Below, piece after piece: positions 39,129-39,686 of a stretch of 64,000 nucleotides of DNA. Origin of the DNA: Escherichia phage adrianh; sequence record MN850614.1, one strand, 5' to 3'. Positions within the stretch are counted from its first letter, which is position 1; every line of letters begins with the position of its first letter. The notes beneath the pieces were generated by a model. It searched no databases. It had not been told where the DNA came from and worked only from the letters and a program-made list of their open reading frames with translations. Made by a program: the position numbers and the translations under genes.

Positions 39129-39686
39129 ATGAGATATTTGAAGTATGCTTCATGGATTTTCTTAGCTTTACTAGACCCAATTGCAGCAACCATAGCAGTT
39201 ATCTTAGCACCTTTCGTAGTTCCATTCTACAGTGAGAAGAAAGGACATCTACCTTTTGGATTCAGATGGATGGAGACCTATGACAACCCGATTGATGGTG
39301 ATAAAGGCCACGTTGAGAGATGGGCTAATATTAGATGGATTGGTAAACTAGGTGTCTACATGCAAAGAGTTGGATGGCTCTGGAGAAACAAAGCTTATAA
39401 CTTCTCTTACCATGTATTAGGAAGAGATGTAAAAGATGTTACTAAGTGGAAAGGTAATATCAACGTAAGTTCTAACCCTGAAGATAATCAGACTGGTTAT
39501 CTCCTAATGTGGAACAGGAATGCTTGGGGATTATTCGCTTTTATCCCATCAATTAAAATCTTTGGTAAACAATTTTACTGGAGAATTTATATTGGATGGA
39601 AACTAAAAAGTGTTGTCCCAGAAGAAAGAGCATTCTCAAGGGAAAGAGTTATGTTGGCATTCTTTATTCATCCACTGAGAAAGTAA
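39129..39686 (+). CDS. Hypothetical Trp-rich membrane protein embedded in tRNA array
   Basis: 185 aa; AAAGAGG RBS; hydrophobic N-terminal segment; flanked by tRNA genes. Confidence 0.45.
   Translation: MRYLKYASWIFLALLDPIAATIAVILAPFVVPFYSEKKGHLPFGFRWMETYDNPIDGDKGHVERWANIRWIGKLGVYMQRVGWLWRNKAYNFSYHVLGRDVKDVTKWKGNINVSSNPEDNQTGYLLMWNRNAWGLFAFIPSIKIFGKQFYWRIYIGWKLKSVVPEERAFSRERVMLAFFIHPLRK

What the first reader, a model, noticed from the sequence alone, without database searches (positions are those of the whole stretch)
39129..39686. Protein-coding gene embedded in the middle of the tRNA array
A 185 aa Trp-rich protein with a hydrophobic N-terminus and its own RBS interrupts the tRNA array between the tRNA with the CAA anticodon and tRNA-Gln. 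Genes embedded in phage tRNA clusters are sometimes homing endonucleases or tRNA-related enzymes; this one shows neither motif and is unexplained.
Basis: seen in the sequence. Interest (0 to 1): 0.4.

Follow-up and report, generated by a model that had tools for sequence, protein, structure and literature searches.

The report
Conserved membrane-protein gene inside tRNA array
The ORF is a real, strongly conserved phage gene (the Felix O1 ORF48 orthologue, Pfam family DUF7338) for a small membrane-anchored protein of unknown function that is wedged between two tRNA genes; it is catalogued and dispensable in the laboratory, so it is mostly ordinary, although the family turns up repeatedly in tRNA arrays and next to lysis genes.

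Summary
The ORF at 39129-39686 (+) encodes 185 aa with 11 Trp, an N-terminal hydrophobic helix and an AAGAGG ribosome-binding site. It lies 18 nt after tRNA-Leu(CAA) and 8 nt before tRNA-Gln(UUG). The window is a Felixounavirus, and the ORF is the orthologue of Felix O1 ORF48 and Bas63 gene 153.

It matches Pfam DUF7338 (E 4.5e-61) and PHROG 2143, both of unknown function. At least 838 clusters (50% identity) belong to the family. Among Felix-like orthologues dN/dS is about 0.07. A confident AlphaFold model (pLDDT 92.6) has no relative in PDB.

It is not a homing endonuclease, not a recognisable tRNA enzyme and not a member of any Pfam holin family. The "holin" labels in GenBank are propagated by BLAST. 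Published knock-out data for Bas63 show the gene is dispensable.

Homologues sit inside or next to same-strand tRNA arrays in several separate phage lineages. In tRNA-free phages they sit between tail-fibre genes and the holin/endolysin genes.

My best reading is a single-pass inner-membrane accessory protein that is co-transcribed with the tRNAs and acts late at the cell envelope. The biochemical function remains unknown.

The parts
39033..39110 (+). tRNA-Leu (anticodon CAA) with encoded CCA end; upstream neighbour of the ORF
   Evidence: ARAGORN; Rfam tRNA, 43.6 bits
39111..39128 (+). 18-nt AU-rich spacer holding the Shine-Dalgarno AAGAGG (39116-39121). The spacer is conserved in relatives whichever tRNA precedes it.
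   Evidence: Sequence; comparison of upstream junctions in 24 Felix-like loci
39129..39686 (+). CDS of 185 aa, Pfam DUF7338 / PHROG 2143; orthologue of Felix O1 ORF48 and Bas63 gene 153
   Evidence: dN/dS 0.069
39147..39230 (+). Codons 7-34: predicted transmembrane helix. W9 and P28 are conserved across the family, and the LAPFVVPF motif among the closer relatives.
   Evidence: Hydropathy; AF2 helix 2-33; family conservation
39276..39302 (+). Codons 50-58, T-x-D-N-x-x-x-G-D motif (T50, D52, G57 and D58 nearly invariant in 170 representatives)
39375..39389 (+). Codons 83-87, W-L-W-R-N motif (W83, R86 and N87 at 99%)
39594..39602 (+). Codons 156-158, G-W-K motif (98%, 96% and 90%)
39687..39694 (+). 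8-nt spacer between the stop codon and the next tRNA
39695..39770 (+). tRNA-Gln (anticodon TTG); downstream neighbour, invariant in all Felix-like loci
37555..37583 (+). Candidate sigma-70-like promoter (TTGACA-17-TATACT, 11 of 12 matches). It is the nearest + strand promoter-like site upstream of the ORF. Consensus match only.
   Evidence: the number of sites in the region is no higher than in shuffles
41209..41226 (+). First + strand terminator-like hairpin with a T run downstream of the ORF, after the last tRNA (Cys). Candidate end of the tRNA/mRNA transcription unit.

Best explanation
**What it is.** A real, translated accessory gene of a Felix O1-like myovirus. It encodes a single-pass (bitopic) inner-membrane protein.
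- An N-terminal transmembrane helix covers residues ~7-34. Its most likely orientation is N-in/C-out.
- A ~150-aa basic, aromatic-rich alpha+beta domain follows. Its fold has no solved relative.
- That domain carries a nearly invariant polar cluster with conserved Trp around it (T50, D52, D58, R86, N87, K158; W47, W83, W157). This looks like a ligand-binding or catalytic site.

**Expression (inferred).** The gene has no promoter or terminator of its own. It is transcribed as part of the polycistronic tRNA precursor. Its mRNA is translated on that precursor, or after release by the RNase P and RNase E/3'-end processing that matures the flanking tRNAs (tRNA-punctuated expression).

**Function (inferred from context in other phages).** It acts late at the cell envelope as a dispensable accessory of the tail-fibre/lysis gene neighbourhood, binding or modifying an envelope or lysis component. 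It is neither the essential holin nor anything that acts on tRNA. The tRNA array is a cargo and expression site, not a functional partner.
For: **Shown**
- *Family membership and breadth:* (838 clusters at 50% identity, nearly all 160-200 aa and single-domain).
- *Purifying selection:* dN/dS 0.069.
- *Structure:* the AF2 model has pLDDT 92.6, with a long N-terminal helix followed by an alpha+beta domain.
- *Hydrophobic helix:* residues 7-34 contain a single charged residue. Mean hydropathy of this segment is >1.5 in 96% of 170 family members.
- *Topology:* the N-tail is more positive than the post-TM flank in 79% of 164 members.
- *Invariant polar and Trp residues:*.
- *Spacing:* spacers are 18 and 8 nt. 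No + strand promoter-like site lies between 37583 and the ORF, and the first terminator-like site after it is at 41209.
- *Knock-out:* Bas63 gene 153 has positive fitness (+0.84 to +1.85 and +0.46 to +0.60), whereas the endolysin and gene 29 are negative (doi 10.1101/2024.10.10.617714, supplementary file 3).
- *Not in the virion:* it is not in the Felix O1 virion proteome list.

**Context supporting the functional inference**
- *Lysis genes nearby:* in ten separate lineages a lysozyme, endolysin or holin lies within three genes on the same strand, often with overlapping start and stop codons. These are L094, L058, L064, L071, L081, L106, L107, L108, STP4-a and Aeromonas avDM12.
- *Tail-fibre genes upstream:* tail-fibre or tail-fibre-assembly genes lie just upstream in L006, L057-L059, L081, L094, L103, L107, L108 and L110. 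One protein (P0034) fuses the N-terminal half to a tail-fibre tip domain.
- *Late timing:* Dhakavirus homologues are preceded by a terminator plus TATAAATA, the T4 late-promoter consensus.
Against: - No experiment addresses function, and the envelope/lysis role rests on gene neighbourhood only.
- In this phage the endolysin is about 7 kb away on the other strand, and the spanins are elsewhere.
- Several lineages show neither lysis, tail nor tRNA neighbours (L005, L052, L089, L092, L109). In L062, L068 and L088 the neighbours are DNA-metabolism genes.
- Topology is not settled.
  - The domain is basic in 91% of members.
  - The only frequently conserved Cys (position 150, 64%) has no partner. 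This would suit a cytoplasmic domain at least as well as a periplasmic one.
- Co-transcription and processing are inferred from spacing and consensus scans, whose site counts do not exceed shuffled controls.
Confidence: 0.5

Rival explanations
1. It is the phage's holin (as labelled in several GenBank records and in the PhageMaP tables). On this reading it is a one-TMD holin with a large periplasmic domain, analogous to T4 T, that permeabilises the inner membrane to release the endolysin.
For: - It has one N-terminal TMD and is under 220 aa.
- Felix O1-like phages have scattered lysis genes and no proven holin.
- Homologues sit next to endolysins in many small phages.
- Records ESCO45/56, GEC_vB_B1, HP1 and UPEC01/07 say 'holin'.
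Against: - The labels are BLASTp-propagated, not tested.
- There is no match to any Pfam holin family at E<=1.
- The Bas63 knock-out is not deleterious, while another holin candidate (gene 29) and the endolysin are.
- The family coexists with recognised holins: phrog_3427 in L081 and L064 and GTA_holin_3TM in L107. By established knowledge, the T4-like phages that carry it also encode gene t.
- An invariant polar cluster in the soluble domain is atypical for holins.
Confidence: 0.12
2. It is a superinfection-exclusion or receptor/lysozyme-blocking factor. On this reading it is a membrane-anchored periplasmic protein that masks or modifies the receptor (LPS core), or inhibits incoming tail lysozymes. 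Functional analogues would be T5 Llp, Cor or T4 Sp. The effect would be to protect the infected cell and the progeny.
For: - It repeatedly sits next to tail-fibre, tailspike and tail-lysozyme genes, and one protein is fused to a tail-fibre tip domain.
- It is dispensable in single-phage laboratory culture.
- The conserved ligand-binding-like cluster and the TMD motif suggest a specific target.
Against: - There is no similarity to Llp, Cor, Sp, Imm or any PDB entry.
- The late-promoter motif in the Dhakavirus loci, which stands immediately after a terminator, argues against the early expression expected of an exclusion factor.
- The same protein family (55-60% identity) is shared by phages with different receptors and hosts, including Escherichia, Klebsiella, Cronobacter and Salmonella phages.
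Confidence: 0.2
3. It is functionally tied to the tRNAs. On this reading the basic C-terminal domain faces the cytoplasm and binds, protects, modifies or helps process phage tRNAs, for example against membrane-associated or imported anticodon nucleases.
For: - It is embedded in or adjacent to same-strand tRNA arrays in several separate lineages. These are Felixounavirus, L030, Avunavirus Av-05, four or more Straboviridae genera, Pseudomonas phage Roomu-2, the L062 group and L088.
- The domain is basic (+13 here, mean +6.6) and aromatic-rich, with an unpaired conserved Cys.
Against: - 13 of 21 clusters (70% identity) have no tRNA within 6 kb.
- There is no RNA-binding or enzyme domain hit.
- The flanking-charge rule favours a periplasmic domain.
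- phiEa21-4 keeps a 26-tRNA array without this gene.
- In the Dhakavirus loci the homologue is flanked by terminator-like hairpins with a T4 late-promoter motif in front, so it appears to be its own unit and not part of the tRNA transcript.
Confidence: 0.07
4. It is a selfish mobile ORF, such as a new kind of homing endonuclease, that targets tRNA genes. That would explain why its flanking tRNAs differ between phages.
For: - The flanking tRNAs differ: Leu/Gln here, Arg/Gln in most relatives, Asp/Ser in L030, Gly/Gln in Av-05 and Phe/Met in PG7-like phages.
- Phage tRNA arrays do host HNH ORFs.
- The gene is absent from phiEa21-4 at the syntenic Arg-Gln junction.
Against: - It has no nuclease motif or family hit and carries a hydrophobic N-terminal helix.
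- It sits at a fixed position in about 219 Felix-like genomes instead of being sporadic.
- Purifying selection is strong.
- In small phages it is translationally coupled to tail and lysis genes.
Confidence: 0.03

Closest known systems
Pfam DUF7338 (PF24027) / PHROG 2143; Felix O1 ORF48 (NP_944875.1), Bas63 gene 153
   Same: Full-length HMM matches at E 4.5e-61 and 7e-79. It is 92-97% identical to its orthologues and sits at the same position before tRNA-Gln(UUG).
   Different: Nothing substantive. This phage lacks the tRNA-Arg(ACG) that precedes the gene in most relatives. The family itself has no assigned function.
T4 holin T and antiholin RI (single N-terminal TMD or SAR domain plus a globular periplasmic domain)
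   Same: The predicted architecture and size class are similar. A late-promoter motif precedes the Dhakavirus homologues. The family lies close to lysis genes in many phages.
   Different: No sequence or fold similarity. The Bas63 knock-out is not deleterious. The family coexists with recognised holins.
Homing-endonuclease ORFs embedded in phage tRNA clusters (T4 segB; HNH ORF44/45/47 in the Felix O1 array)
   Same: It occupies an inter-tRNA position in a phage tRNA array, and its presence varies between genera.
   Different: It has no nuclease domain. It is a membrane protein, it is fixed within the genus, and it is widespread outside tRNA arrays.
tRNA-mRNA co-transcripts (E. coli thrU-tyrU-glyT-thrT-tufB operon; mitochondrial tRNA punctuation). 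These come from my own knowledge and were not checked here.
   Same: A coding sequence is separated from the flanking tRNAs by only 18 and 8 nt, with no intervening promoter or terminator. The second ORF in the array (40138-40872) is arranged the same way, with 16 and 1 nt spacers.
   Different: Transcript structure and processing have not been measured for this phage.
Receptor-blocking or exclusion proteins encoded next to receptor-binding genes (T5 Llp, phi80/N15 Cor, T4 Sp)
   Same: It is a small envelope-located accessory protein, dispensable in the laboratory. In other lineages it is often encoded next to tail-fibre, tailspike or tail-lysozyme genes.
   Different: There is no homology, it is not a lipoprotein, the inferred timing is late, and no exclusion phenotype is known.

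Membership tests
Pfam DUF7338 (PF24027) | HMM score above the curated gathering threshold over the full model | tested here: met
   206.1 bits against a cut-off of 27; residues 1-184 on model positions 1-176 of 180
Pfam DUF7338 (PF24027) | The family's conserved motifs are present (LP..W..T.DN...GD; WLWRN; GWK) together with the N-terminal hydrophobic helix | tested here: met
   All the nearly invariant positions found in 170 representatives are kept in the window protein
PHROG 2143 | Profile match over the full length | tested here: met
   E 7e-79; residues 1-185 on profile positions 1-183 of 186; category 'unknown function'
Holins | At least one transmembrane domain in a small protein | tested here: met
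   One predicted TMD (residues ~7-34) in 185 aa
Holins | Membership of a recognised holin sequence family | tested here: not met
   No Pfam holin family at E<=1; no NCBIfam hit; hhalign against T4 T gives probability 0.1
Holins | Encoded next to the endolysin (lysis cassette) | tested here: inconclusive
   Not met in this phage, where the endolysin orthologue is about 7 kb away on the - strand. Met in about 10 other lineages.
Holins | Required for timed lysis; lethal membrane permeabilisation on expression | not testable with these tools
   The only indirect evidence is that Bas63 gene 153 knock-outs have positive fitness, unlike the endolysin and gene 29
Homing endonucleases (HNH, GIY-YIG, LAGLIDADG, His-Cys, PD-(D/E)xK) | A nuclease catalytic domain or motif | tested here: not met
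   No such Pfam, PHROG or NCBIfam hit, and no structural match
Homing endonucleases (HNH, GIY-YIG, LAGLIDADG, His-Cys, PD-(D/E)xK) | Sporadic presence or absence among close relatives | tested here: not met
   Present at the same site in about 219 records at >=80% aa identity. Absent only at genus level, in phiEa21-4.
tRNA-modifying, repair or processing enzymes | Similarity to a known RNA-binding or catalytic domain | tested here: not met
   No hits in Pfam, NCBIfam, PDB sequence or PDB fold searches
tRNA-punctuated (co-transcribed) mRNA | No independent promoter or terminator; transcript ends generated by tRNA processing | tested here: inconclusive
   The 18-nt and 8-nt spacers and the consensus scans are compatible. 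Transcript mapping is not possible with these tools.

The most novel reading that the evidence does not exclude
DUF7338 is a previously unrecognised component of Gram-negative phage lysis/envelope modules. It would be a membrane-anchored enzyme or specific binder with a new fold (catalytic-looking T/D/D/R/N/K cluster) acting on peptidoglycan, LPS or a lysis protein. In large lytic phages, tRNA arrays would serve as expression platforms in which such mRNAs are punctuated by tRNA processing.
Probability: 0.2. Interest if true: 0.6.

Novelty: new member of a known kind. Interest (0 to 1): 0.3.

Why it matters
For this window it matters little. The gene is a catalogued, dispensable accessory gene found in hundreds of sequenced Felix O1-like phages.

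The family is more interesting. It has at least 838 clusters at 50% identity, a confident fold with no solved relative, an invariant polar site, and two recurrent genomic niches: inside tRNA arrays, and between tail-fibre and lysis genes.

Working out its function could add a component to phage lysis or envelope biology. It would also correct the "holin" label now spreading through databases. The tight tRNA-ORF-tRNA packing is a convenient natural case for studying tRNA-punctuated mRNA expression in phages used for therapy and biocontrol.

Tried and rejected
- **Homing endonuclease or tRNA enzyme:** no domain hits in Pfam, NCBIfam or PHROG.
- **Solved structural relatives:**
  - PDB sequence search with the family profile found nothing at E<=10.
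  - Foldseek against PDB gave a best E of 0.44.
  - BFVD returned only family members.
  - The afdb50 library was unavailable.
- **T4 T holin homology:** rejected (sequence recalled from memory).
- **Informative names from databases:** two large protein searches, one with a 50-member profile, returned only 'hypothetical', 'holin' or 'envelope protein' labels and no extra domains. The one exception is a chimera with a tail-fibre tip domain.
- **Literature:** nothing for DUF7338, PF24027, phrog_2143 or VOG0370.
- **Partnership with the second array ORF (DUF7217):** rejected. That gene co-occurs only in Felix-like loci.
- **Disulfide or metal site from paired Cys:** none; only one frequently conserved Cys.
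- **Special RNA structure at the tRNA-ORF junctions:** z-scores of -0.9 and -1.4, unremarkable.
- **Bacterial (non-phage) homologues:** a scan of genomes from 185,579 species found only six loci. One lies on a 178-kb contig that looks like T4-like phage DNA, and others have phage-type neighbours; none gave a functional clue.

Full report
**1. Observation**

ARAGORN finds 24 tRNA genes on the + strand between 36148 and 41046. tRNA-Leu(CAA) ends at 39110, with an encoded CCA, and tRNA-Gln(UUG) starts at 39695. Rfam agrees with both.

- The 18-nt spacer before the ATG contains AAGAGG, 7 nt from the start codon. Only 8 nt separate the stop codon from the next tRNA.
- The protein has 11 Trp (5.9%), 18% aromatic residues, and 27 K+R against 14 D+E. 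Residues 7-34 form a strongly hydrophobic stretch with a single charged residue.

**2. Identity of the phage and the gene**

The region is 97-98% identical to Felixounavirus genomes such as nataliec, JohannRWettstein (Bas63) and EC6, and 212 records cover at least 80% of a 2.7-kb query. The ORF corresponds to nataliec_48, bas63_0153 and Felix O1 ORF48, which is annotated 'Phage conserved protein'.

- It matches Pfam DUF7338 over its full length (E 4.5e-61, 206 bits against a cut-off of 27) and PHROG 2143 (E 7e-79). Both are of unknown function. NCBIfam has no model for it.
- Among 23 distinct Felix-like orthologues the median dN/dS is 0.069, so the reading frame is under strong purifying selection.

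**3. The family**

- tblastn finds homologues in 580 phage records:
  - Felixounavirus and Suspvirus;
  - many Straboviridae (Slopekvirus, Karamvirus, Dhakavirus, Gelderlandvirus, Chrysonvirus);
  - jumbo phages (Siatvirus, Moabitevirus);
  - Pseudomonas phages of about 96 kb.
- An exhaustive profile search finds 838 clusters at 50% identity with E<=1e-3, nearly all 160-200 aa with a single matched stretch.
- In 170 representatives the nearly invariant positions are P28, L41, P42, W47, T50, D52, G57, D58, W83, R86, N87, G109, G123, G156, W157 and K158. This conserved set of polar residues and Trp resembles a binding or catalytic site more than a mere membrane plug.
- AlphaFold2 gives a confident model (pLDDT 92.6, pTM 0.84). 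It has a 32-residue N-terminal helix, a cluster of short helices and a five-stranded antiparallel sheet.

**4. Topology**

The N-terminal segment is hydrophobic on all faces and conserved (mean hydropathy >1.5 in 96% of members), so a transmembrane helix is the reasonable reading.

- The net charge of the N-tail (+1.23) exceeds that of the nine residues after the helix (-0.18). The N-tail is the more positive side in 79% of 164 members, which favours N-in/C-out.
- Against this, the domain is basic in 91% of members. Its only frequently conserved Cys (position 150, 64%) has no partner.
- I treat a periplasmic orientation as probable but not settled.

**5. Genomic context: tRNA arrays**

In every Felix-like locus the gene ends 12 nt (by the tblastn match, which excludes the stop codon) before tRNA-Gln(UUG). 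The upstream neighbour varies:
- tRNA-Leu(CAA) at 20 nt (this window's type);
- tRNA-Arg(ACG) at 20 nt;
- tRNA-Arg(ACG) at 257 nt.

In the last form an extra 78-aa ORF fills the gap, and its stop codon overlaps the ATG. The spacer CCA-ATTTAAAGAGGCTATTTA-ATG is the same whichever tRNA precedes it.

Homologues are also embedded in, or directly downstream of, same-strand tRNAs in several other lineages:

| Lineage | Identity | Position |
|---|---|---|
| L030 | 86% | between tRNA-Asp and tRNA-Ser |
| Escherichia phage Av-05 | 79% | between tRNA-Gly and tRNA-Gln |
| PG7-like Karamvirus | about 57% | 70 nt after tRNA-Phe, in an 18-19 tRNA array |
| Dhakavirus and Gelderlandvirus | 56-60% | mostly 130-240 nt after tRNA-Arg(UCU), up to about 1 kb in some loci |
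| Cronobacter phage S13-like | 57% | 219 nt after tRNA-Met |
| L062/L063/L068 | 33-34% | 17-270 nt after a tRNA |
| L088 | 28% | between tRNA-Thr and tRNA-Ser |
| Pseudomonas phage Roomu-2 | 23% | between tRNA-Gln and tRNA-Trp |

Arrays plus 1-kb margins occupy only a few percent of these genomes, so five or more independent lineages is far more than random placement would give. That is my rough estimate, not a formal test.

The link is not obligatory:
- 13 of 21 clusters (70% identity) have no tRNA within 6 kb.
- Erwinia phage phiEa21-4 belongs to the same subfamily and has the local order Val-Leu-Arg-Gln in its array. It lacks the gene entirely (tblastn E>=0.32, no HMM hit), although it keeps the other array ORF.

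**6. Genomic context: tail fibres and lysis**

In tRNA-free, mostly smaller phages and prophages the gene lies at the junction between tail-fibre genes and the lysis cassette. It is on the same strand, often with overlapping start and stop codons.

- L094: tail fibre, a 193-aa ORF, DUF7338, a 96-aa ORF, GH108 endolysin, then Rz further on.
- L058: tail-fibre-like gene, DUF7338, an 89-aa ORF, endolysin.
- L064: DUF7338, a weak holin match, endolysin.
- L071: DUF7338, endolysin.
- L081: tail-fibre assembly gene, DUF7338, holin, endolysin.
- L106 (Burkholderia prophage): lysozyme, then DUF7338.
- L107: tail fibre upstream, DUF7338, with a 3-TM holin three genes on.
- L108: Peptidase_C92, DUF7338, lysozyme.
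- L110: tail fibre, tail assembly chaperone, DUF7338.
- Aeromonas avDM12: long tail fibre, DUF7338, a stand-alone lysozyme domain.
- STP4-a: tRNAs, DUF7338, two small ORFs, endolysin.
- One metagenomic protein fuses the N-terminal half to a Gp53-like tail-fibre tip domain.
- Dhakavirus homologues are preceded by a terminator plus TATAAATA, the T4 late-promoter consensus, and followed by a terminator.

Together these point to late expression and an envelope- or lysis-related role.

Some lineages have unrelated neighbours instead:
- L089, where the upstream gene matches a phage RNA polymerase beta-subunit family;
- L109 and L092;
- L062, L068 and L088, next to DNA-metabolism genes.

**7. Experimental information**

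- In the PhageMaP knock-out screen of Bas63, gene 153 has positive fitness: +0.89, +0.84 and +1.85 on strain S17, and +0.57, +0.46 and +0.60 in the first sheet of the defence-strain file (doi 10.1101/2024.10.10.617714, supplementary files 3 and 4).
  - On S17 the endolysin (gene 123) scores about -1.1.
  - Gene 29, another 'holin*' candidate, scores about -1.5 on MG1655.
- The 'holin*' label there is explicitly a manual BLASTp annotation.
- The Felix O1 genome paper found no holin-lysin cassette, and its holin candidates do not include this gene (PMC3185647).
- ORF48 is not in that paper's list of virion proteins, whereas Gp49 is.

**8. Expression model (inferred)**

No + strand promoter-like site lies between 37583 and the ORF. 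The nearest upstream site is TTGACA-17-TATACT at 37555-37583. The first + strand terminator-like hairpin downstream is at 41209-41226, after the last tRNA. These are consensus matches whose total number does not exceed shuffled controls.

With 18- and 8-nt spacers, the simplest model is one transcript carrying tRNAs and ORFs. Its coding segments would be delimited by RNase P and 3'-end tRNA processing. The second ORF (40138-40872, DUF7217) is packed in the same way. The junctions show no unusual RNA structure.

**9. Verdict**

The finding is real and correctly described. It is a member of a catalogued family of unknown function, conserved throughout the genus and dispensable in the laboratory.

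- It is not a homing endonuclease, not a recognisable tRNA enzyme, and probably not the holin.
- The most likely reading is a late, tRNA-co-transcribed, single-pass inner-membrane accessory protein of the tail-fibre/lysis neighbourhood, with a conserved ligand-binding or catalytic site.
- The biochemical activity is unknown.
- Interest is modest for this window. The family as a whole (new fold, invariant site, two recurrent niches, a spreading mis-annotation as 'holin') deserves an experiment.

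Noticed in passing
window 40138-40872 (+); the longer GTG-started ORF 40075-40872 overlaps tRNA-Phe 40046-40121: A second protein gene is embedded in the array (Pfam DUF7217, E 5e-89). It starts 16 nt after tRNA-Phe and ends 1 nt before tRNA-Ser(GCU). It is the counterpart of Felix O1 ORF49, and Gp49 is listed among the virion proteins in PMC3185647, where it is assigned to a 51-kDa band although this ORF is only 244 aa. It is conserved in phiEa21-4 (44% identity) even though DUF7338 is not.
   Followed up: partly
window 39110/39111 junction; L001 4718-4792; L009 5760-5998: This phage lacks the tRNA-Arg(ACG) that lies between tRNA-Leu(CAA) and the ORF in most relatives, yet the spacer is unchanged. 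Other relatives carry an additional 78-aa ORF between tRNA-Arg and the gene, with its stop overlapping the ATG (ATGA).
   Followed up: partly
window 37788-37866 (+): Rfam finds a tRNA (31.7 bits, above the gathering score of 29) that ARAGORN did not report. Its position corresponds to the tRNA-Arg(AGA) annotated in Bas63. The array therefore probably has 25 tRNA genes.
   Followed up: no
window 37479-37786 (+): Sub-threshold tmRNA and permuted-tmRNA matches (29.4 and 16.3 bits, gathering score 47) lie in a 570-nt gap of the array. The Moogle genome note (PMC4319497) reported an ssrA-like gene in a Felix O1-like phage.
   Followed up: no
window 34566-35981 (+): A 471-aa ORF lies directly upstream of the tRNA array. 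It corresponds in position and size to the gene annotated as vWFA protein in nataliec, 'RNA-binding protein' (ORF42) in Felix O1, and Bas63 gene 130. PhageMaP describes the Bas63 protein as Ro60-like and as a counter to the ppl defence system. A Ro60-like protein next to a tRNA array may be worth its own look.
   Followed up: no
L111 (Felix O1) 3531-4016, 4504-4896, 5814-6227; L001 1401-1835: Felix O1 carries three HNH endonuclease ORFs inside its tRNA array, and nataliec carries one. This window has none, so array cargo differs between strains.
   Followed up: no
L002, L041, L045, L047 about 25-35 nt upstream of the homologue; L049 likewise: Dhakavirus homologues are preceded by a terminator hairpin plus TATAAATA (the T4 late-promoter consensus). 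In most of these loci a terminator-like hairpin also follows, so the gene looks like a monocistronic late unit next to the tRNA cluster.
   Followed up: partly
protein P0034 (metagenomic, 172 aa): This is a chimera of the N-terminal half of DUF7338 (residues 3-96) and a Gp53-like tail-fibre C-terminal domain (residues 96-172). It is either a recombinant or an assembly artefact.
   Followed up: no
GenBank records OM386661, OM386665, MW006474, OK539913, MW250787, MW233709; OK258139: The family is annotated as 'holin' or 'envelope protein' in some records with no supporting evidence found here. In the one traceable case, the PhageMaP tables, the label was assigned by BLASTp.
   Followed up: partly
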